Assembly: GCA_024679065.1 (NCBI GenBank)
Contig: JAGIQG010000012.1
Location: 54,560,001-54,624,000 of the forward strand
Source: Sphyrna mokarran
Taxonomy: Eukaryota
DNA: 64,000 nt
Direction: 5' to 3'
The position numbers and the translations under genes were made by a program. The notes beneath the pieces were generated by a model that saw only the letters and a list, made by a program, of their open reading frames with translations, searched no databases and was not told where the DNA came from. Position 1 is the first letter of the stretch. Each line of letters starts with the position of its first letter. Positions 4,421 through 52,900 of this stretch are shown here, piece by piece.

Positions 4421-4652
4421 GAGTCAGGATTTTCTGCACTCCCCCACTTCATCCCCAGTTCCCGCTCCTCCAAGTTGTTTACTGACAACAGAGGCAGCAT
4501 ATCATTCGCTGCCAGCAGGATCTTCTGGTGCTACTGATGTCTACACTGTTTTCCATGACCTGCTCGTTCTGCCACCACAGATCGCCTTTCACGGGACTGG
4601 AAAATTCCACCCCCCCCCAAACCCCAGTGGGAAGGGCCATAAAATCCCATCC
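4421..4652. mobile_element. Palindromic MITE-family copy
   Basis: Ends caggattttct...aaaatcccatcc with internal ggatcttctgg and ggaaaattcc; similar to the copy at 28120-28314. Confidence 0.55.
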
Positions 4653-4898: not shown

Positions 4899-6441
4899 AG
4901 AACATAGAACATAGAAGGTAGAACATTACAGTGCAGAACAGGCCCTTCGGCCTTCGATGTTGCGCCGACCAATTATGAAAAAAAAGCAATGACCCTCCAA
5001 ACTAAACCATTCCCTTCTCTTCCATAAACTTATCAACTAACTCTTAAACGCCACCAAACTTGGCGCATCTACAACTGCCGCAGGCAGGGCATTCCACTCC
5101 CTAACCACCCTCTGGGTAAAGAACCTACCTCTGATATACGTCCTATAACTATCACCCCTTAATTTAAAGCTGTGTCCCCTCGTGCTAGCTTTCTCCATCC
5201 TAGGAAAAAGGCTATCACTGTCCACCCTATCTAAACCTCTAATCATCTTATGTGTTTCGATAAGGTCTCCTTTTAGCCGCCTTCTTTCTAATGAAAACAA
5301 CCTCAAATCCCTCAGACTGTCCTCATAAGACATGCCCTCCATACCAGGCAACATCCTGGTAAACCTCCTCTGTACCCTCTCCAATGCCTCCACATCTTTC
5401 TTTATAATGTGGGGACCAGAACTGCACACAATACTCCAAGTGCGGCCGCACTAGAGTTTTGTACAGTTGCAACATGACTTTGCGGCTCCGAAATTCAATC
5501 CCCCTACCAATAAAAGCTAAGACTCCGTATGCCTTCTTAACAACCTTATCGACTTGACTGCCTACTTTCAGGGATCTATGCACATATACAACAAGATCCC
5601 TCTGTTCATCAACACTATTAAGAATCCTACCATTAGCCCTATACTCTACACATTTATTATTCCTGCCAAAGTGCATTACCTCACACTTTTCCACATTAAA
5701 GTCCATTTGCCACCTCTCGGCCCAGCTCTGCAACTTGTCCAAGTCTCTCTGCAAACTATAACACCCCTCTTCACTATCTACCACTCCTCTGACTTTGGTG
5801 TCATCCGCAAATTTACAATCCATCCTTCAATACCCTCATCCAGATCATTTATAAAAATTACAAACAGCAGGGGCCCCAAAACAGATCCCTGAGGTACACC
5901 ACTAGTAACCGAACTACACGATGAATATCTCCCATCAACCACCACCCTCTGTCTTCTATCTGCTAGCCAATTCCTAATCCAATTAGCTAATCACCCTCAA
6001 TCCCATACATCTGCATTTTCTGCAGAAGCCTTCCATGGGCCACCTTATCGAACGCCTTACTAAAGTCCATATATACCACATCAACTGCCTTACCCACATC
6101 CACCTCTTTGGTCACTTTTTCAAAAAACTCAATAAGGTTAGTAAGGCACGACCTACCCTTCACAAAACCATGCTGACTATCCCCAATCAATTCATTTCTC
6201 TCTAAAAAACTATAAATCCTATCCCTAATAATTCTCTCCAATACTTTGCCCACAACAGAAGTAAGACTCACTGGCCTATAATTCCCTGGAAAGTCTCTAT
6301 TCCCCTTCTTGAACAATGGGACCACATTCGCTATCCTCCAGTCTTCTGGAACTATACCCGTAACCAACGATGACCTGAAGATCAGAGCCAGAGGCTCTGC
6401 AATCGCCTCTCTTGCCTCCCAGAGAATCCTAGGGTAAATCC
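4899..6441 (-). mobile_element. 5'-truncated, relatively young CR1/HER1-type LINE
   Basis: ORFs 5987-6367, 5323-5823 and 5037-5429 give RT motifs [29 protein letters not shown] and LEYCVQFWSP. 3' tail ggccgaagggcctgtt followed by (TTCTATG)-like repeats. Possible TSD GTTTT at 4894-4898 and 6442-6446. Confidence 0.95.
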
Positions 6442-7340: not shown

Positions 7341-7502
7341 CTGGAATATGCTTTGCCCATCCAATGATGACCACTAGCTCCCGATCAGCCAAGTCGCACA
7401 GTGTAGTGAGGGCTTTAATGTCACTCTCCGGAATGGTGGGATCAGGCATGGCGTAGATCTTCTCTGGCTCAGCCACAAGCAAGTGTGAGACAATCTTGTT
7501 GA
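7341..7502 (-). CDS. ESRRG: ESRRG coding exon: start of ligand-binding domain (F)[53 protein letters not shown](G)
   Basis: Lies within ORF 7318-7524. Polypyrimidine tract, CTGAC branch-like motif and acceptor TTCCAG|TC; donor CCAG|GTAC; 162 nt. Confidence 0.96.
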
Positions 7503-15937: not shown

Positions 15938-16250
15938 ATCACAGAATTCTACAGTGCAGGAGGAGGCCATTCAGCCCACTGAGTCTGTGCTGAACACAAT
16001 CCCACCCAGGCTATCCCCTTAATCCCGTGCATTTACTCTAGCTAGCCCCCCGTCACTAACGGCCAATTTAGCACGACCAATCCACCAAACCAGCACATCT
16101 TTGGATTGTGGGGGGAAGCCAGAGTACCCGGAGGAAACCCACGCAGGTACAGAGAGAATGTGCAAACTCCACACAGACAGTGATCCAAGCTGGGAATCGA
16201 ACACAGATCCCTGAAACTGTGAGGCAGCAGTGCTAATTACTGTGCCACCC
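15938..16250 (-). mobile_element. HE1-like V-SINE with CR1/HER1-type tail
   Basis: tRNA-like head (gtggcacagtaattagc...gttcgattccc), V-domain (cactgtctgtgtggagtttgcacattctc...tgggtttcctccggg) and tail gggctgaatggcctcctcctgcactgtagaattct. Confidence 0.9.
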
Positions 16251-17759: not shown

Positions 17760-19310
17760 TCTTTCTTCTTCCCTTTTTTCTTCTTCCACCTGTTTCTCCT
17801 ATTCCCATGCTCAAGCTGTTGGCAAAGGCTATCATCTCATGGTGAGGTTATGTAGCTTGTGGCAGGCTACCACTAACCTTGAAGATCACTCAAGCTGAGT
17901 GCTGCAGGGCTCCTTCAGATCAGTCCAGGCAGTGGAAGCATTGTTTCAGTACACCAGTGGTCTACTCAATTATATTTCATGGGGCAGCTTGATTTTCATT
18001 GTATGCAAGCTGTGAGTGGGTTACACACTACGGCTGTGTTGTCAGTGGATAGTCCTCATCAACACTAGCCACATTTTGACTTGTTGTGGTGCCTCGACTG
18101 CAGCTGGCACAGGAGAACGTCACTGAATGAAGGCATTTTAACTGCTGCCAGGATACTAGGCATTGGCCTGCATGATTTTCTCAGTATGGTCACACACCAG
18201 CTGGATGTCAAGGGATGGCATCCTTTCAGTTCCAATTGAGGGCAGATGTGGCACATGCACATCAATATCTTTGACATCAGTGGCAAACTACAGCATGGGA
18301 AACTCTGCAATCCTAGCAAAGCCACTTGCTCACTTCATGGACCTGTCTTTGACAAGACAGAATGAAATGTAGCTAGCTCTCACTAAGTAGACAGAATGTT
18401 AGTGACTGCCTTTACCCAATAGCAACCAGCTAGCAAACTGTGTGATGTTGCAAAGATCTCCAGTTTTAGCCTGAAAGAAGCCAAAAAACTTTTATTGTCA
18501 CATCACTGTCCCATTCACAGCCAAGTATTGGGATTGCTACCCTGTTCTGGGGTTGTAGCAGTAGCTGCAGCAATTGACAGATTTTAGCGAGGGCTTCCTT
18601 ATGTAAATACATATGTTTGACACATTATTCCTCATTGAAATTCATGTAGGAAAGTTGCTCCCAAACAGTTTGGATAGATATAATCTCCTGCTCAAGCCCT
18701 TCCTCCCCCTCCCTCTTCTAGCAGCTTGTCCTACTCCTGCAGCTCTTCTGCTCATTTTCCAAGTCACAATTAATCCATGGGGCATGCCTACTCAGTGCAG
18801 CCATGTCTGGAAGCAACTGGATTGTGCAGAAGCTTGAAGTCAGCAAAGAGTTCTTCAGAACCTGCCACATTGTACTGTACAGACTTTGGTAATTTGAAAC
18901 AATTACAGAAAAGATTAACCACTTTTGAAATCAAATAACAACCAGAAGAAATCAACCAACAACTAACTTGTAATTAATTGATGATTCATTTAAATAGCAT
19001 GTTAGCGGGTGGGTGATGTTGTTGAATGTATATTCAGGCATGCATGGTTAAGAACAATATTAATTTTAAAGCATTAAAGATCTAAACTGGCAGTGTTGGT
19101 GACTGCGATGGCATTGCACTCTGATTGACTTTATGATCTACTTACTCTGCTAACCTTTAGCCCATGTCTGTTATTCACATCAATGCCCTCACCAATCCAC
19201 CCACTGGATGACTTGCCCATTGAGATGTAGTGTATCTCATAAGGCCATTTGGAAACTCAAACGGAACCAGGAATACCCAAAGAGTGAGCACCATTGAACC
19301 AAATCGTGCA
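17760..19310 (-). pseudogene. Fossil Harbinger/PIF (HARBI1-like DDE) transposase with upstream flank
   Basis: Minus-strand translation AYNENQAAP*NIIE*TTGVLKQCFHCLD*SEGALQHS (18006-17896), plus GFARIAEFP, IQLVCDH and YPGSS remnants. The upstream motif gaagaaatcaaccaacaactaac...tttaaatag is shared with the copy near 58900. Confidence 0.85.
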
Positions 19311-19702
19311 CGTACTTGATTCAACGAAATCTATTCTATTTGCAGGTTACTATGAAAGACAAACACTACTTGGAATGAAACTTTAAAATTACAAGTCTAC
19401 ATCTAACGTTGATTGCACCAGAAAGATCGCTGTCATCCAAACATAATGAAACGCGATCAATTAATAAAAAGTTGTTATTGGAGAGGGACTGTTACTCAAA
19501 GGTTTTATCCATTTTGGAAATAATTTGTATTGGAAATTAAAACAGGAATTTATTTGAGGAAAAAAAGCTTACTATGAAGAATATGAGTGCTTAATAGGAA
19601 GACTGTGAGAAAACATGGGTTCTACATTTTATGATAAGGGTTGGATAAAGACAGATGTCTTTAAAAAATCCCTGCTTTTTCACACCATGTTTTGCATCAT
19701 TC

Positions 19703-21505
19703 TTTGACTTGATTTATTGTTACATGTATTGGAATACAGTGAAAAGTAGTGTTTCTTGCCACTATACAGACAAAACATACCATTCATAGAGAACATATCT
19801 TACGAATCTGGTGGAATTTTTTGAAGAAGTGACAAAAACAGTTGATGAAGGACAGGCTGTTGATGTCGTCTACATGGATTTCAGTAAGGCGTTTGACAAG
19901 GTTCCTCATGGTAAACTGATAGAGAAGGTGAAGGCGCATGGGATACAGGGTCGGGTATGTAGATGGGTCGAAAACTGGCTCGGAAGGAGGAGACAGAGGG
20001 TAGTAGTGGAAGGCTCTTTTTCCGGCTGGAAGCCTGTCACTAGGGGAGTGCCACAAGGCTCAGTACTAGGTCCTCTTCTATTTGTGGTCTACATAAACGA
20101 CTTGGAAGTAGGGGTAGGTGGTGAGATCAGCAAATTTGCTGATGACACCAAATGCTTGGATTGGCGGGTACAGAAGAGCAGTGTCAGGCAATACAACAGG
20201 ACATAGACAGGTTGGTAGATTGGGCAGATAGATGGCAAATGGAATTTAATCCGGAAAAATGCGAGGTGATGCACTTTGGCCAGAAAAATGTAGAAGAGAA
20301 TTATAGGATAAAAGGTAAAACTATAAGGAGCATAGAGACGCAGAGAGACTTGGGGGTGCAGGTTCACAAGTCTCTGAAGGTGTCCTCATAGGTGGAGAAG
20401 GTGACAAAGAAGGCGTATAGTATGTTAGCTTTCATAGAAAAGGGTATAGAATATAAGAGTAGGAGTTTGATGTTGCAGTTGTATACAACTTTGGTTAGGC
20501 CTCACTTGGAATACTGCGCCCCGTTCTGGTCTCCGTACTATCGGAAGGATGTGGAGTCCTTGGAGAGAGTGCAGAGGGGGTTTACCAGGATGCTGCCTGG
20601 TATGGAAGGACTGTCCTATGAGGAACGATTAGATAGACTGGGGTTGTTTTCCCTTGAAAGACGTCGGCTTAGAGGGGATCTCATAGAGGTGTATAAGATT
20701 ATAAGGGGTATAGATAGAGTAAATGGAGGTAAACTTTTTTCACCTTTAGAAATGGATAGGACGAGAGGTCATGGCCATAGGGTGAGGGGGGCTATGTATA
20801 GGACGAATATTAGAGGGCAGTTTTTCACACAAAGGGTAGTGGGGGTGTGGAATGCACTGCCGAGTAAGGTGGTGGGAGCAGGCACGCTGGGGCTGTTTAA
20901 GGGTCTCTTGGACAGCCACATGAGCGGTATGCAGATAGAGAGATATATTAGGACTGTTTAACTACGGCTTTTTTCCACAGGTAATTCGGTCCATAATTTG
21001 AGCACGCATTCGGCAGGTGGTGCGGGTACAGCTCTTGGATGTTGATTCATGGGTTGCCTGGTACCTCATGTCGTATATGAGTGCTTTATGTGGACCACCT
21101 GAAGGGCACCATGCCAGCTCAGAGACTATCGATGTGGCTGTGCAGACACTTGGAATTGGGCCGGTGTCTGCGGGAGTTTGCGCGTTCTCCCCGTGGTTGC
21201 GTGGGTTTTTCTCCGGGCACTCCGGTTTCCTCCCACAACCCAAAAATTCGCTGTTAGGCTGATTGGGTAACAAATTGTCCCTATGGTGAAAATTTTCCAA
21301 ATTAGGATTAATATATATATTATTATATAGGAATATTAAAATAGGATAATGATTTGGTATTACGGTGGCGCGGGCTCGTTGGGCCGAAGGGCCTGTTTCC
21401 CGTGCTGTGTTGCTTAATAATAATAAAAAAAAACATAGGGGAGAAAGACAGAAGAGGGTGCAGAATATAGTGTTACAATCATAGCGAGGGTGGAGAGCAA
21501 TGTCA
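19703..21505 (-). mobile_element. Short retroelement 3'-end fragment (19703-19797 and 21432-21505) split by the CR1 insertion
   Basis: tttgacttgatttattgttacatg...cattcatagag continues after the insert as catagg...gcagaatatagtgttacaatcatag; resembles an L2-like shark repeat terminus (recognition only). Confidence 0.55.
19798..21431 (+). mobile_element. Young 5'-truncated CR1 LINE with long 3' UTR containing a V-SINE-like core
   Basis: RT ORFs 19811-20206, 20152-20391 and 20392-20961 ([17 protein letters not shown]), stop at 20961. V-domain at about 21159-21285; tail gggccgaagggcctgtt + (TAA)n/polyA. TSD AACATA at 19792-19797 and 21432-21437. Confidence 0.93.
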
Positions 21506-21550
21506 ACATGGAATTTATAAGGGTTAGAGTATAGTTTTAAAAGCATGGAA

Positions 21551-21671: not shown

Positions 21672-24250
21672 TAGGAGCTCTGGGTGTACAAGTACACAGA
21701 TCTATGAAAATGACAATGCAGATGGGGGGAGGTAGTCAAGAAGTTATACTTATCTTCATCAGCCAGGGCACTGAGTTTAAAAATTGGTAGGTCATGTTAC
21801 AACTTTAGAGCAAAGAACAAAGAAAATTACAGCACAAGAATAGGCCCTTCAGTCCTCCTAGCTTGCACCAACCATGCTGCCTGACTGAACTAAAACCCTC
21901 TACGCTTCCAGGGACCATGTCCCTTTATTCCTATCTCCTTCATGTACTTGTCAAGACACCCCCTTAAAAGTCACTACTGTATCTGCTTCCACTCCCTCCC
22001 ACAGCAATGAGTTCCAGGCACCCACCATTCTGTGTAAAAAAAAAAAATCTGTCTCGTTCATCTCTTTTAAAACTTGCCCCTCACACCTTAAACCTATGCA
22101 CCCGAATAATTGACTCTTCCATCGTGGGAAAAAGCTTCTGACTATCCACTCTGTCCATGCCCCTCATAATCTTATAGACTTCTAAATCAGGTCTCCCCTC
22201 AACCTCCATTGCTCCAGTGAGAACAAACCAAGTTTCTCTAACCTCTCCTCATAGCTAATGCCCTCCATACTTGGCAACATCCTGTTAAATCTTTTCTGTA
22301 CCCTCTCCAAAGCCTCCACATCCTTCTGGTAGTGTGGCAACCAGAATTGAACACTATATTCCAAGTGCTGCCTAACTAAGGTTATATAAAGCGTCAACAT
22401 GACTTGCCAATTTTTAAACTGAATACCCGGCTGATGAAGGCAAGCATGCCGTATGCCTTCTTGACTACCTTCTCCACCTGCATTACCATTTTCTGTGACC
22501 TGTGTACCTAAACACACAGATCCCTTTGCCCTTTGATACTCTTAAGGGTTCTGCCATTTACTGTATATTTCCTATCTGTATTAAACCTTCCAAAATGCAT
22601 TACCTCACATTTGCCTGGATTAAACTTCATCTGCCATCTCTCTGCCCAAATCTCCAATTGATCTATATCCTGCTGTATCTTCTGATAGTCCTCATCGCTA
22701 TCCACAAATCCATTAACCTTTGTGTCATCCGCAGACTTACTAATCAATGGTTACATTTTCCTCCAAATCATTTATATATATTACGAACAGCAAAGGTCCC
22801 AGCACTGATCCCTGAGGAGCACCACTGGTCACAACCCTTCATTCAGAAACGCACTCTTCCACTGTTATCCTCTGTGTTCTTTGACCAAGCCAGTTTTGTA
22901 TCCACCTTGCTAGCTCACCTCTAATCCCATGCAAGTTCAACTTCTGCACCAGTCTGCCATGAGGGACTTTGTCAAAGGCCTTACTGAAGTCTATGTAAAC
23001 AACATTCACTGTCTACTCTCATCAATCACTTGTCATACTTATATGACAATCATTTGTCACTTCCTCAAAAAACTCAATCAAGTTCATGAGACAAAACTTC
23101 CATAAAACCATGTTGCCTCTCATTAATACGTCCACTTATTTCCAAGTGGGAATATGTCCTGTCTCGAAGAATCCTCTTTAATAATTTCCCTACCACTGAT
23201 ATATGGCTCAGCAGCCTGTAATTACCCAGATTATTCTTGCTACCCTTTTTAAACAAAGGAAGAACATTGGTCATTCTCTAATCCTCTGGGATCTCCCTTG
23301 TAGCCTTGAAAAGATTTTTCCCAAGGCCCCAACAATTTCCCCTCTTGCCTCTCTCAGTAATCTAAGGTATATTCCATCAGGTCCTGGAGACTTGTCCACC
23401 TTGATGTTTCTCAAGAACTCCAATACTCCTCCTTTTTGATCTCAACATGACTCAAACTATCTACACAGCCTTTCCCAGAGTCATCATCCATCACATCCTT
23501 TTCTTTGGTAAATACTGATGCAAAATACTCACTTAATACCTCACCCATTTCCTCTGACTCCACACATAGATTTTCTCCCTTGTCTTTGAGTGAGCTAACT
23601 CGTTCCCTGGCTACCCTCTTGCTCTTTGCATATGTGTAAAAAACCTTGGAATTTTCCTTAATCCTGCTGGCTTTATGGAACCTTAGTTTGGCCATACTTG
23701 GAATACAGTATTCAATTCTGGTTGCCACACTACCAGAAGAATGTGGAGGCTTTGGAAGGGGTGCTGAGAAGATTTGCCAGGATGTTGCCGAGTACAGAGG
23801 GCATTAGCTATGAGGAGAGGGAGAAACTTGGTTTGTTCTCACTGGAATGCCAGAGGTTGAGGGGCAACCTGATAGAAGTCTACAGGATTGAGGGGCATGG
23901 ACAGAATGAATAGTCAGAAGCTTTCTCCCTGGTTGGAAGAGTAAATTACTAAGGGGTATAGGTTTAAGATGTGAGGGACAAGGTTTAAAGGAGATGTACG
24001 AGGCAAGTTTTTTTTTTACAGAGCGAGTAGTGGATGCCTGGAACTCGCTACTGGGGGAGGTAGTGGAAGCAGATACGATAGTGAATTTTAAAGGCTATCT
24101 GGACAAATACATGAATAGGATGGGAGTAGAGGGATATGGTCCCCAGAAGGGTAGGGAGGTTTAGTTCAGTCAGGCAGCATGGTTGGTGCAGGCTTAGAGG
24201 GCTGAATGGCCTGTTTCTGTGCTGTAATTTTCTTTGTTCTCTTTGTTTTT
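21672..24250 (+). mobile_element. CR1 3' fragment (host; 21672-21807 and 23671-24250)
   Basis: The reading QL|YGTLVWPYLEYSIQFWLPHYQK is continuous across the insert; tail ggcctgtttctgtgctgtaattttctttgttct. Confidence 0.88.
21808..23670 (-). mobile_element. CR1 LINE inserted antisense into a closely related CR1
   Basis: ORFs 23411-23728, 23074-23274, 22508-22747 and 22182-22517 are CR1 ORF2 fragments. TSD CTTTA at 21803-21807 and 23671-23675. Confidence 0.92.
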
Positions 24251-24305: not shown

Positions 24306-24585
24306 AAGTTTATTTATTAGTGTCACAAGTAGGCATACGTTACTTTAATGAGGTTATTGTGAAAATCCCCAAGTCACTGCATTCTGGCACCTGTTCAGGT
24401 ACACTGAGGGAGAATTTAGCATGGCCAACGCATTTAACCTGCACATCTTTTGGATTGTGGGAGGAAACCCACACAAACACAGAGAATGGGCAGACTCCGC
24501 ATAGACAGTGATCCAAGCTGGGAATTGAACCAGGGTCTCTGACACTGTGAGGCAGCAGTGCTAACCACTGTGCCACCATGCAGCC
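24306..24585 (-). mobile_element. HE1-like V-SINE with alternative (non-HER1) tail
   Basis: tRNA head and V-domain as at 15938-16250, but the tail is gattttcacaataacctcatt...cctacttgtgacactaataaataaac. Confidence 0.88.
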
Positions 24586-28119: not shown

Positions 28120-28314
28120 AGGTGAGATTTTGTCAGTTCTGCAACGACATGTTTTCCAGTGAAGGAAGCGGTTTGCTATTGGCCTCTGGCAGGATCTTCT
28201 AGTCCCACTGATATCTATGGCATTTTGCATGGCTTGCCCATCCTGCCACTGCGGGGATATCACTTTCAGCAGGACTAGAAGATCCTGCCAGTGGGAAGGA
28301 TGGAAATCCCATCC
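28120..28314. mobile_element. Palindromic MITE-family copy
   Basis: Internal inverted repeat tggcaggatcttctagtcc / ggactagaagatcctgcca; ends ggaaatcccatcc. Confidence 0.65.
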
Positions 28315-29555: not shown

Positions 29556-29930
29556 GCGACACAGTGGCACAGTGGTTAGCACTGCTGCCTCACAGCACCA
29601 GGGACCTGGATTCGATTCCCGGCTTGGGTCACTGTCTGTGTGGAGACTGCATATTTTCCCCATGTGCTCTGGTTTCCTTCCACAGTCCAAAGATGTGCAG
29701 GTCTGGCTGATTGGCCATGCTAAATTGCTCTAGTGACAGGTGCACAAGCTGGGGTAAATGCATGGGGATAGGGTCTGGATGGGATTGTGGTCGGTTCAGA
29801 TTCAATAGGCCAAATAGCCTCTTTCTGCACTGTATGGGTTCTATGATTCTATGAATAGAGGATTTTCACAGTAACTTCATTGCAGTGTTTATGTAAGCTT
29901 ACCTGTGACGTTAATAAATAAATAAACAAA
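29556..29930 (+). mobile_element. HE1-like V-SINE carrying two tails in tandem
   Basis: Head cagtggttagc...ggattcgattccc, V-domain, HER1-type tail ending ttctatgattctatga (about 29854), then the second tail gattttcacagtaacttcattgcagtg...aataaataaataaac. Confidence 0.9.
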
Positions 29931-42857: not shown

Positions 42858-43270
42858 CTTGTATAGTACGCTTGAAGAATGCTTTGCAGGCCTCACAGGA
42901 AGCAACACCGTAATGATATCCTGATGCTATGTCACCGCAGACCAAACACAATCTTTTGGGCATGGAGTTCAACATGTACTCGCACTTGGTCTGCGAGTCT
43001 TCAGCTATAGTGCTCGAACAGTCGTCGTACCGCTTACGGGAGCTCCCGTTGCTGCCCAAGCTGGTCGTTGTATAGAGTGGGGGAGAGTCCAGGCCATTCT
43101 GGTGTCCATTCATAGTGGAGCTGTAGCTCCCACTGGCGTCCGATGAGCCACCTGGACTGTGGTGATTGATACTATCTGTCAGCGAGGCAGGGCTGGACGG
43201 CTCTGTCTTAATGTATGATGAGCAGCTCGAATCAATGTGTCGATCCTTGGCTGACATTCTGCAGAGAAGC
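42858..43270 (-). CDS. ESRRG: ESRRG coding exon (equivalent of human coding exon 2): A/B region and first zinc finger, [16 protein letters not shown]...[30 protein letters not shown](G)
   Basis: ORF 42805-43257 closely matches the ERR-gamma N-terminus and has the ERR-type P-box CEACKA. Acceptor TTTTCACAG|G at 43271/43270, donor CAAG|GTAAT at 42858/42857; 413 nt. The internal ATG at 43255-43257 corresponds to the short-isoform start. Confidence 0.97.
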
Positions 43271-47448: not shown

Positions 47449-48623
47449 ATTTCATCATGCACTCGCAGAGCTGGAGAGCAAATAGAGAGTCTTTGAGCAA
47501 TTATTTTCTGCACACAATTCCTTCTACAAAAGAATTTGGAAAAACTAGATAGGGAGGTTGGATTTATTTTATCTGGGCCATTCTCTTAAGGCTTAGAATC
47601 TGAAACCAGTTTCACCAGCAGAAGAAATTTTATTTTCATCTGATTGACAAAGAAGAATAATAATTATTGTTGTATGAAAGTGGTGAATTAATGCACAGGG
47701 AAAGTGAAATTTACAGAGCTGGATTTTCCAGCCATGCTTGCCTGAAAACCGGAAAATTCTGGTCAACAGAACTTTGTCGCCCTGCTATGGTTTTCCCTGA
47801 CACGCAGAATGGGAAAACTCATAAGAACAAATGCAACCAACTTGATCTGATGATAGCTGTTGTAAAATCCCCATTGTTTATCAAATGTTTATGTAGCTTG
47901 GCAGATTGTGTCCTTTTCCCTGCTCCCTAACTATTCCTCCTATTCAATTTTTGTTGCACCTCAATTATGGAACGTCCTGGTGTTGATGGAAAGATATTAA
48001 GTGGTCGACCTGTGGAGCTCACAAGCCTTTATCTCGTGTAACTGCCAGTTTACAGAGGACAGTCACGTTCAATTATCTAAACTCGAAGTGTCACCATTTT
48101 TATAGGGAGCAACTTCATTTTGCTTCTTCTTTAAGCAAAAACAGTGGTGAGCAAGTCAAGACTCCACTGCATATGTTTTAGAAAAAAAGTCAGAATTTCT
48201 ATTCGGAAACATTATGGGGAGAATTTTCACATCGTGCTCATCATGGGAACTGTAGTGGGAGAAGGGAGATAATGCAAAGTTCCACTGGCCTTGGATAGGA
48301 TTTTCCGGTTTTCGGGTGAGTGTGGCCGGAAAATCCCGCTCTGTGCGTTCAATTTCCCTGTGCATTAATTCTCCACTTTATTTCCTTTCAGCCAGCAATA
48401 ATTACTATTCTTCTTTGTAAATCAGACAAAAATAGAATTTCGCCTGCTGGTGAAACTGGTTTCAGAATCTCAGCCTTGAGTAGAGAGAGAAGGGGCCGGA
48501 TAAAATAAATCCAACCTCCCTATCTAGTTTTTCCAAATTGTTTCGTAGAAGGAATTGTGTGCAGGAAATAATTGTTCAAAGGCTTCCTATTTGCTCTCCA
48601 GCTCTGCGAGCACATGATGAAAT
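47449..48623. repeat. Long inverted repeat: arms about 47449-47825 and 48210-48623, spacer about 390 bp
   Basis: Arms align throughout by eye, including a perfect 41-bp reverse-complement match between 47533-47573 and 48499-48539. The inner ends of both arms are MITE-family copies. Confidence 0.93.
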
Positions 48624-49384: not shown

Positions 49385-49922
49385 GGGTGGCACGGTGGCA
49401 TAGTGGTTAGTAAGTTTTTTTTTACACAGGTGGTGGGTGCCTGGAACTCACTGCTGGGGGAAGTAGGAGAAGGATATAAGATAGTGACTTTAAAGGGGTA
49501 TCTGGACAAATACATAAATAGGTTGGGAATGGAGGGATATGGTTCCCGGAGGACTGGGGGTTTTAGTTCAGTTGGGCAGCATGGTCAGTGCAGGCTTGGT
49601 TGGCCGAAGGGCCTCTTGCTGTGTTGTAATTTTTTTGTTCTATACTACCTCACAGCGCTGGCGACCCAGGTTCAATTCCCAGCTCGGGTCACTGTCGGCA
49701 TGGAGTTTGCACATTCACTCTGTGTCTGAATGGCTTTCCTCCGGGTGGTCCGATTTCCTTTCACAATCCGAAAGATGGGCAGGTTAGGTGCATTGGTCAC
49801 GCCGGATTCTCCCTCAGCATATCCGAATAGGCACTGGAGCACAGCGACGAGGGGATTTTATAGTAACTTCATTGCAGTGTGAATGCAAGCATATTTGTGA
49901 CTAATAAATAAATAAACTAAAA
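49385..49922 (+). mobile_element. V-SINE (alternative tail) with a CR1 3' fragment (about 49413-49641) inserted in its tRNA-like head
   Basis: gtggcatagtggttag | CR1 end (ttttacacaggtggtgggtgcctggaac...ggccgaagggcc...ttgttct) | ctacctcacag...ggttcaattccc, then V-domain and tail gtaacttcattgcagtg...aataaataaataaac. Confidence 0.9.
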
Positions 49923-52900
49923 CTTTTTTCACCAATTTCCAAACAAAAAAGTTTTTTTTTCCCTAAAATGGACTTCAATTGTGCTGCAGATTTCAATAAA
50001 CACGTGCAAGACTTGCTGCGTGGTCTTGTTGGAGAGTTTCATTCACACTTCCACTTACCTCAGAAATAAAATGCACAGGACGTCTTTCACTGTCATATTC
50101 CTGCAGTCTGCGAGAAAAAACGCCAGGCTCTACACCTGTTCAGTTTTTGTGCTAAGCATAGAGTGGCATTTCATCACAATCACTGTTTAACTGAATGTTT
50201 AGCCTTAGCATCTTGCACCATGCTGTCAGCTAGCAGCGGGGAGTCATGGAGTTGTTGGCACATTTGATTTTACTGCCATTAAGAAAGCGACTTTATACAC
50301 TGATTGTCCCAGGGCCCGTTTCAGAGACTCCACGGTAACCACCTTCGCTTTTTTTTATGATGACACTGTGACAAGGTGATTTTATACACTTGGATTCAGT
50401 AATAAAGATGTCAGTCAGACTAAGAACCATCAGGGCTCCTAATGAATTCATCTGGGGGTGGGGGGTTGGGGGGGGGAGTTGCGGGGAGCTGCTGGGGTCT
50501 TCTCACACATGTACATTTAAAGGGTCACAGAGAAATGGAACTAAAGTGTAATTAAAGCGTATTTCATTAGGAGGGGAAGCTGATAGGATATAACAAGACT
50601 GTAAAAAAAAAAGCCTATTTCCTGTGGCTTGAGTATGAAAGACATGTCTTTAACCAGATCAGATTCTATAAATTGGTTGTCAAGAAAGGATTGTTGAGAT
50701 TTATACCCATCTATCAACCTACAGAGGTAGCTGTGGCAGGGCAGGCTGCTGCGACTCCCATCTGTAAAGCATCTTAAATCTGAAGAAGGCCATCTGCTAG
50801 AACAAATGCCTCAAAAGCAAATTTGAGTTATTGTTTATTGACTTAAAAAAATTGCAGTGCTCAAATGCTAACTCAGTGAGTAGTTTTGAGACAATTTCTA
50901 AATAAAGCTGTTTAAATTCTACCGCAAAAGATCTGAAATCTCATTCCTATAAGTGGCAGGACCATTGCATTACTTGCAACATGAATCAGCTCAGCTCTGA
51001 GTAATTCATAACATATTTCATTGTGAGCCAGGATGAAAATACATAAGGCACACACACATATACATAAAATACAATGTGTGCTGCCTTTATCACAAGTCCA
51101 GATTTCGTATAATTTTGCTAATTGACCCACTCAGTTGGCATTGATGCTTTAACTTCCTTCCTTATATAATTGACAAAGCACAGGGAGGAATGGCTTCCTC
51201 CCTGCACCACAGGCAATACTGGAATTTTTTACACATTTGATTCACAAATAAAATGCGCTCATTTAACGAACAAGGGTCTTTGCTTGCAGAATTCATTTGG
51301 TAGTTACAAAAATAAGTAACAATGCACTCTCCACACAGCACATGGGCGATAAATGTTAAAATGCAAGCGTTACAAAAGTAGAAAATAACCTGAGAAAATG
51401 GCTCAAAATATGAATCATCCAAGATGGCTAGGAACTCAGCACCATGAGCAGCATTTCTGATGAAGCTCAAGTATGTATGTGCTAGTTTACATGCTGCAAT
51501 TCAGTTCAGTGTATCACTAAGAAAATAAAGTGGGCCCCATTGTTAACTGGGGCATAGAAACAATGGGCAGCATCTTGGTTTTTGGTACAAAATTAGAATT
51601 AACTTAGTTTTTGCAGCTGTATGCGATGGCTTCCTCTTTCCAATTAAATCCCATCAAGTTTTGTCATTGCAAAATATCGCTGCTACTGTACTTAGTTTCG
51701 TGAAGAATCTTGCCATCTAATTCAGTCCAGAAGATTTACCCCAATATATAATCAAGTGGCCCCTGCTGAAAGTGCAAATTATTAATGGAGGAGTGAGGGG
51801 TATTCGAATCCCCACCACTATGCTGTCAAATATTGGTCAAGATGAAGCATGCATACTCAATAGCTATCTGAAATACGGACCAACAATGAAAACAATTGTT
51901 CTCATAATCTTTCTTCCTTCTGGACAACAGAAAAAGGGCACTTCCAATAGTTTTATACAGAGTTTACGTTTAGGCATTTCATTTCACACATAAATAATTG
52001 AATAAGTGTTACAGGTTGACTATTCGATGAAAGGAAGAGAAAAACAGGTTCAGCTTCAATTGCTGTGAACAGCCCTTTAATTTGAAATTACAGCAGGATT
52101 TTATGGGATGGCAGTGGTTCCATCCACTGGCTGGGAAGTCAGGGGGTGGGTGGGGTATTGCAGCTTCCACTAATCCCAGAATAGTGGAATTAATTGCCTG
52201 CAGTCGGGGCTTCCGCTGCTCTTGGGGATGAGGCCCCACCCCTAAGAGCTGCCTACCAATCGAATATTTGACAGTTCTTCAGGCCCAGCACTACAGCAGC
52301 AGACCCAGACCAGCTGCTATGGTGATGGTCCTGGAGTACAAGCAAGTTTGGGAAACTCTCAGGTCTGATCAGGCAAGCCCTGGTGAAATGTCTAAACGTA
52401 AACTCTGTATAAAACTATTGGAAGTGGACCACACGGATGGAACCTCGGCCATTTTGTATTGGTACGAAAGCTACTCTCTTATTCACCCACAGACACCACA
52501 CAAACACACACATTTAAGAAGTAGCTTCATTCATGGGGTGTTGTGTTTTGTGGGGGGGAGGGGGGGTAAGGGACAGGGTGCTGTAGATCTTTCAACGTGA
52601 ATAAACATTATAAACATTGCCACGGTGAGTGGCGGGAGGAGTTGTTGGTTTGGGGATCTTCAGTAGGCCACAGGATGCCCCATCAGAATAGTCCAATCTC
52701 TGAGCATGCAAGGAGGCTGCCAAGATCTTCCCAACTGCTCATGTCCCCATCTGCCTGCTGCTGGTATAAACTAGTGAAAGGTGGGGGGGGAAGGATCCAC
52801 TGGTTGGTCCTTAAGTGACCACTTATGAGCTTCAGTTAATCCAAGGACAGGTAGGCTTCCTCACCACCGATAAAATGCCAAATTGGGAAGGAGAAAGGCT

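What the first reader, a model, noticed from the sequence alone, without database searches (positions are those of the whole stretch)
19798..21431. CR1 LINE carrying a V-SINE core domain in its 3' UTR, mobilised as one unit
Seen: after the RT stop codon (20961) come about 200 bp of unassigned sequence, then a CpG-intact V-domain (gtgtctgcgggagtttgcgcgttctccccgtggttgcgtgggtttttctccgggcactccggtttcctccc, about 21159-21285) with no tRNA A/B-box head, then a single CR1-type tail. One TSD (AACATA) brackets the whole element. The other CR1 copy at 4899-6441 has a short 3' UTR with no V-domain. Known: HE1-type SINEs share only their 3' tail with the partner LINE, and the origin and function of the V-domain are unclear. 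Inference: this may be a LINE family that captured, or donated, the SINE core.
Basis: partly seen in the sequence, partly recalled or inferred. Interest (0 to 1): 0.75.

Follow-up and report, generated by a model that had tools for sequence, protein, structure and literature searches.

The report
Shark LINE carrying a SINE core
A jumping-gene copy in a shark-like genome carries in its tail the ancient conserved core normally found in short parasitic repeats, which matters only if other copies share this build, and that could not be checked here.

Summary
The anatomy is confirmed: a 5'-truncated CR1 LINE (19798-21431) whose ORF2 stop is followed by 194 unassigned bases, a complete 120-bp V domain (21164-21283) without tRNA head, an AT-rich linker and one CR1 tail hairpin, all between AACATA repeats. 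New here: the unassigned part holds a sense-strand 46-pair hairpin (z -5.1, window chosen after the fact); the tail has a compensatory pair change; the V domain lies about 20% from the four local SINE copies, though the copy has decayed only a few percent; its linker matches neither local SINE linker tested. This favours a CR1 subfamily that captured a V domain and carried it for some time (0.65) over a one-off chimera (0.22). Donation of V by the LINE is unlikely. The decisive test failed for lack of data: no shark genome or repeat library was reachable, three peptide searches across the junction found nothing, and ORF2 relatives (up to 88%) come without DNA context. A headless V-SINE inside another transposon is already known (MER6); one paper states such domains are not found in LINEs. 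Verdict: probable new variant, shown for one copy only.

The parts
19792..19797 (+). 5' target-site duplication AACATA; its last bases overlap LINE homology (microhomology at the truncation point)
19798..20961 (+). 3' third of CR1 ORF2 (RT domain from mid-way, C-terminal region); frameshift near 20152-20157, premature stop at 20389-20391, natural stop 20959-20961
   Evidence: relative P0013 is 88% identical and ends at the same residue
20978..21101 (+). long unbranched RNA hairpin in the unassigned 3' UTR: 46 pairs (23 GC, 15 AU, 8 GU), mean pair probability 0.93
   Evidence: z -5.1 for 20975-21105, -2.9 for 20962-21155, +0.7 for the antisense strand; 1 of 200 control windows reached -5
21102..21155 (+). 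rest of the unassigned UTR; 21142-21149 is the perfect reverse complement of 21164-21171, a stem across the junction
   Evidence: 46 of 2000 shuffles reach 8 bp; the same stretch gives 6-7 bp with local SINE starts: weak
21156..21283 (+). SINE-homologous block: 8 bases of head/body boundary plus the complete V domain (21164-21283); T5 run at 21206-21210
21284..21360 (+). AT-rich linker (about 84% AT), no significant match to two local SINE linkers or four CR1 ends
   Evidence: 203-821 of 1000 shuffles score as high
21361..21412 (+). CR1-type 3' tail stem-loop; one outer-stem pair is G-C here and A-U in the other 7 of 8 tails
21413..21431 (+). terminal (AAT)3 plus A run
21432..21437 (+). 3' target-site duplication AACATA

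Best explanation
This is a fairly young, 5'-truncated, now dead copy of a cartilaginous-fish CR1 subfamily whose 470-base 3' UTR contains a V domain captured from a V-SINE. One target-primed reverse transcription event started at the terminal tail hairpin, copied through V, the long hairpin and ORF2, and stopped inside the RT domain, leaving a 6-bp duplication. Inferred origin: an ancestral CR1 came to lie directly 5' of a V-SINE body in the same orientation (insertion into the SINE head, or a template switch); its Pol II transcript read through V to a downstream tail, that tail became the RT recognition site, and the old tail and head remnant were lost or overwritten. V is then cargo or an RNA-structural element of the LINE RNA, no longer dependent on Pol III. 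Shown: anatomy, single tail, missing head, divergence pattern. Inferred: family status, capture route, any function.
For: (1) The tail loop lies 471 bases after a conserved codon near the ORF2 end, against 82-98 in 4 of the 5 other CR1 ends examined (the fifth missed the pattern but has its tail in the same place); no leftover tail in the first 120 bases. (2) The ORF2 subfamily exists elsewhere with the same C-terminus (P0013 88%, P0072 79%, P0001 76%; grouped with P0013 and P0072 at 95/93 but only 89/84). (3) Own decay is low: 1 stop and 1 frameshift in about 1150 bases (2%, 95% range 0.06-13%); 19 of 162 residues differ from relatives; 9 CG to 2 TG/CA at 18 V sites against 0-7 CG to 8-10 TG/CA in SINE copies. 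Yet V is 21.5-28.8% from the four SINE copies at non-CpG sites while they are 18.1-21.1% from each other, so it has a separate lineage history. (4) The linker matches neither local SINE linker tested. (5) Sense-only long hairpin and compensatory tail pair point to selection on the RNA. (6) The T5 run in V would stop Pol III (established knowledge); local SINE copies have at most T4. (7) The window holds a snapshot of the proposed route: a CR1 3' fragment inserted into a V-SINE head at 49412-49643.
Against: No second copy was found: 0 hits for junction peptides in three searches; the 2 loci from the genome scan are ordinary CR1 ends without V in the 223 and 147 bases available; none elsewhere in the window. 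These searches have low power (they did not even return ordinary V-SINE peptides), so they neither support nor refute. Only four SINE copies were compared; a young unseen V-SINE family could explain points 3, 4 and the tail pair equally well. The upper decay bound (13%) narrows the divergence gap. The TSD has a 1-3% chance level. The hairpin window was chosen after seeing the fold, and V itself is not unusually structured (z -0.27). T5 could be post-insertion mutation.
Confidence: 0.65

Rival explanations
1. One-off chimera: reverse transcription began on the RNA of a young V-SINE of a family not seen in this window, then switched to a CR1 RNA (with its own long hairpin UTR) at the head/body boundary. 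One insertion, one TSD, no family.
For: Explains TSD, single tail and missing head; RT stalling at the tRNA-like head is plausible (inference). One-off SINE/LINE chimeras between co-active elements are documented: 113 Alu/LINE-1 cases (bioRxiv 10.1101/2025.02.02.635956, passages). LINE-SINE abutments are common here.
Against: In those documented chimeras the LINE is the 3' part; here the order is reversed. It needs an unseen SINE family and a CR1 with an unusually long UTR. The T5 run in V and the weak junction-spanning stem fit long co-residence better.
Confidence: 0.22
2. Sequential insertions at one site (SINE and LINE separately, then a deletion removing LINE tail and SINE head); AACATA is coincidental or belongs to one event only.
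For: Nested CR1-in-SINE insertion occurs in this window at 49391-49912; the TSD has a 1-3% chance level.
Against: At 49 kb the first head half, the LINE tail and the second head half all remain; here none does. It needs an exact deletion and leaves the 194-base structured region unexplained.
Confidence: 0.08
3. The V domain originated in the 3' UTR of this LINE lineage and was donated to SINEs.
For: SINE bodies can derive from LINE UTRs (RTE and Vingi 5' UTRs; PMC5786205). V is complete here and headless.
Against: V predates vertebrates and occurs with CR1, L2 and Nimb partners (passages). This ORF2 sits among fish CR1 lineages whose 3' ends, where seen, lack V. Homology extends 8 bases into the SINE head/body boundary, and the V here is derived relative to the consensus.
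Confidence: 0.03

Closest known systems
HER1 LINE / HE1 V-SINE pair of sharks and rays (Ogiwara 1999, 2002; seen only as table rows and citations in PMC3747384 and PMC4824008; originals not read)
   Same: CR1-clade ORF2, CR1-type tail stem-loop, V domain, cartilaginous-fish host
   Different: In the known pair only the tail is shared; here V is inside the LINE's UTR with no tRNA head. Identity to HER1/HE1 consensus sequences was not testable.
MER6/MER6A MITE (PMC6887750)
   Same: A V-SINE body that lost its tRNA head at about the same boundary and was spread by a different transposon
   Different: Carrier is a non-autonomous Mariner DNA element, not an RT-encoding LINE; proven multi-copy family
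Bipartite LINE-derived SINE bodies (PMC5786205)
   Same: LINE and SINE share more than the tail
   Different: There the shared part is RTE/Vingi 5' UTR and flow is LINE to SINE; no V or CR1 3' UTR case in the 4 of 5 parts read
Alu/LINE-1 and U6/LINE-1 chimeric insertions (bioRxiv 10.1101/2025.02.02.635956)
   Same: SINE and LINE sequence within one TSD
   Different: LINE is the 3' part; U6 chimeras are described as single events that do not propagate
BovB LINEs carrying SINE or CR1 pieces at their ends (Walsh 2013; recalled, paper not held)
   Same: LINE lineage that picked up another retroelement's sequence
   Different: RTE clade, no conserved SINE domain; recalled only, not confirmed

Membership tests
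CR1-clade LINE | ORF2 RT domain closest to CR1 elements | tested here: met
   RVT_1; named hits are bird, turtle, shark, ray and fish RT proteins and the tree places it among fish elements. The label CR1 rather than a sister clade rests on my recall of the motifs.
CR1-clade LINE | 3' stem-loop tail followed by short repeats | tested here: met
   terminal repeat is (AAT)3 plus A run
CR1-clade LINE | ORF1 and endonuclease domain | not testable with these tools
   copy is 5'-truncated inside RT
V-SINE superfamily | V highly conserved domain | tested here: met
   full length against the published consensus (hand count 65 of 80 core columns)
V-SINE superfamily | tRNA-derived head with Pol III A and B boxes | tested here: not met
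V-SINE superfamily | short and non-coding | tested here: not met
   1164 bases of ORF2 are continuous with it
HE1 SINE (local copies as proxy) | V-to-tail linker collinear with local V-SINE copies | tested here: not met
   naming the local copies HE1-like is from recall
LINE family bearing V (the proposed kind) | single insertion event (TSD, one tail) | tested here: met
   TSD support is modest
LINE family bearing V (the proposed kind) | several independent copies with the same junctions | tested here: inconclusive
   0 found; no eukaryote genome searchable
LINE family bearing V (the proposed kind) | absent from Repbase/Dfam | not testable with these tools
   no repeat library available; consensus set of PMC13343379 is on an external archive

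The most novel reading that the evidence does not exclude
An autonomous elasmobranch CR1 family carries a complete V domain, kept by selection in its 3' UTR beside a long RNA hairpin, and has not been described in print. It would be a SINE conserved domain inside a LINE, maintained without Pol III, and would let the domain's function be tested by deletion in a self-mobilising element.
Probability: 0.45. Interest if true: 0.72.

Novelty: new variant of a known kind. Interest (0 to 1): 0.55.

Why it matters
Why SINE core domains stay conserved for hundreds of millions of years is open. [quoted passage not shown] A V-bearing CR1 family would remove that argument, give SINEs and LINEs a shared internal homology block for module swapping, show flow from parasite to host element, and allow a clean test of V in an autonomous retrotransposition assay. 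If it is a single chimera it is a curiosity.

Tried and rejected
Degenerate tRNA head in the unassigned UTR: rejected (135-342 of 500 shuffles score as high). Vestigial LINE tail just after the stop, suggested by the alignment: not significant (319-493 of 500 shuffles). LINE inserted into a SINE at this locus: no head upstream of 19798. Empty-site check against the window: no second copy of the host repeat spans the site. Finding other copies through spurious peptides across the junction: 0 hits (antisense 92 aa; antisense 150 aa against 1.84 billion; two sense frames, 2 candidates, none E<=0.1); low power. 48 of 120 ORF2 hits checked for read-through into the UTR: best E 0.014, none collinear. 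Genome scan: 2 of 39 stretches confirmed, both ordinary. Plasmid and phage sets: no match. One search used a structure string that I had misregistered; disregard it, one search is the valid one. The grouping of the 22 kb CR1 copy with this element is a long branch and was dropped, where support for the remaining group fell below the starred level; rows under 86 aligned residues would have been dropped but none was. Bacterial promoter scan is irrelevant. Shotgun metagenome and viral contig collections stayed unchecked, as did shark assemblies, Repbase and Dfam. One supplementary file of PMC4824008 could not be searched and may hold V alignments.

Full report
Setting. The window is vertebrate DNA rich in CR1 copies and V-SINEs. 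Short motifs of a nuclear receptor lie on the minus strand at 42939, 40379, 10130 and 7359-7392, so the element sits antisense in a 30-kb intron; I read the gene as ESRRG and the host as a shark from recall and from the cartilaginous-fish RT hits, not from a direct test.

Observation. ORF2 homology runs 19798-20961 with a frameshift near 20152 and a premature stop at 20389. Homology to the four local V-SINE copies begins at 21156 (0 of 500 shuffles for each). The published V consensus in the supplement of PMC6887750 aligns by eye over 21164-21283, the whole domain, 65 of 80 core columns by hand count; three short V motifs from the window occur 12, 27 and 26 times in that supplement, a junction motif 0 times. 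No tRNA head is detectable in the UTR or 5' flank. There is one tail hairpin, which scores higher against the four CR1 tails (32-43) than the two SINE tails (27-28). AACATA brackets the element exactly, with a chance level of 1.4-2.8%.

New anatomy. The 194 unassigned bases match nothing in the window or Rfam but fold into a 46-pair hairpin at 20978-21101 (z -5.1 for the chosen window, -2.9 for the whole stretch, +0.7 on the opposite strand; five ORF2 windows gave -1.6 to +0.2). Of 200 control windows 1 reached -5 and 2 reached -4. The V domain itself folds no better than shuffles. An 8-bp stem spans the junction (46 of 2000 shuffles), which is weak. The linker between V and tail is AT-rich and matches neither of two SINE linkers nor four CR1 ends. 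In the tail, one pair is G-C in this element and A-U in the other 7 of 8 sequences. V contains a T5 run; local SINE copies have at most T4.

Age and lineage. One stop in about 1150 coding bases gives 2% decay (0.06-13%); 19 of 162 residues differ from the majority of relatives, some of which may be subfamily differences. CpG sites in V are largely intact. Yet V is 21.5-28.8% from local SINE copies at non-CpG sites, while these are 18.1-21.1% from each other; in leave-one-out comparisons it is 19-22% from the majority against 14-17% for the copies. So it is a young copy of a V lineage distinct from the four resident copies. The ORF2 subfamily exists elsewhere: among 120 listed hits three unnamed proteins end at nearly the same residues (88%, 79%, 76%), grouping with the element at 95/93 or 89/84. 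They carry no DNA context. Other CR1 ends have their tail loop 82-98 bases after a marker codon, this one 471.

Family or single event. I could not search a shark genome. Three peptide searches across the junction returned nothing, a scan of bacterial assemblies gave two stray CR1 loci without V, plasmids and phages nothing. These negatives have little power. The indirect evidence (no leftover tail or head, structured UTR, distinct V lineage, own linker, T5, compensatory tail pair) favours a family at about 0.65. A template switch between a CR1 and a young V-SINE family unseen in this window explains most of it too (0.22); documented SINE/LINE chimeras have the opposite order.

Mechanism. Shown: target-primed insertion hallmarks and modular build. 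Inferred: capture by read-through. At 49391-49912 a CR1 3' fragment has inserted into a V-SINE head in the same orientation, splitting it into profile positions 1-21 and 25-73; a full-length CR1 in that position would transcribe through V to the SINE tail, and loss of the inner tail would give the present structure. Donation of V by this LINE is unlikely because V is far older and broader than this subfamily and is derived here.

Literature. Read: PMC5786205 parts 1-4 of 5; PMC6887750 parts 1-3 of 5 and supplement passages; passages only of PMC4824008 (supplement search 77, one file unsearched), PMC5499810, PMC3747384, PMC5804259 (supplement 76), PMC11481361, PMC4758252, PMC13343379 (supplement 57, 59), PMC6036668, PMC7245038, bioRxiv 10.1101/2025.02.02.635956 (72), PMC8303610. 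Ogiwara 2002 and Walsh 2013 were not held and are recalled. Ten searches showed no report of a V domain inside a LINE; the library lacks most subscription papers and all repeat databases. MER6 is the clear precedent for a headless V-SINE carried by another transposon. PMC5804259 states that such domains have not been found in LINEs.

Verdict. Real, well-formed composite element; probably a new variant (V-bearing CR1), proven for one copy only. Interest 0.55; 0.72 if the family is confirmed and undescribed.

Noticed in passing
window 49391-49912 (+): A 230-bp CR1 3' fragment inserted into the tRNA head of a V-SINE, same orientation, splitting the head between A and B box; a natural model for LINE-V fusion.
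   Followed up: partly
window 21809-23289 (-) and 23670-24240 (+): Two related CR1 copies (83%) in inverted orientation right after the element; a third fragment of the same type at 49415-49641.
   Followed up: no
window 15938-16248 (-), 24309-24577 (-), 29564-29925 (+), 49645-49912 (+): Four V-SINE copies with two tail types; the 29.6 kb copy carries both tails in tandem, and two copies have overlapping 22-base deletions inside V.
   Followed up: partly
window 47449-48623 and 51939-52426: MITE-like elements with long terminal inverted repeats (about 310 bp at 83%, and 43 bp at 98%).
   Followed up: no
window 18702-19001 and 58671-58960: A 300-bp dispersed repeat pair (69%), unidentified.
   Followed up: no
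window 7359-42939 (-): Exons of a nuclear receptor gene, by recall ESRRG; the element lies antisense in its intron.
   Followed up: partly
window about 19700-19797 and 21438-21520: The flanks look, from recall only, like one older antisense LINE 3' end split by this insertion, which would strengthen the TSD; no second copy in the window to test it.
   Followed up: partly
L002 1-547; L001: Vertebrate CR1 contigs inside two prokaryote assemblies (Aeromonas cavernicola; a Nitrosocosmicus MAG), probably contamination.
   Followed up: partly
window 28161-28291: Strong hairpin on both strands (z about -6 and -4), part of a repeat also at 4504-4575.
   Followed up: no
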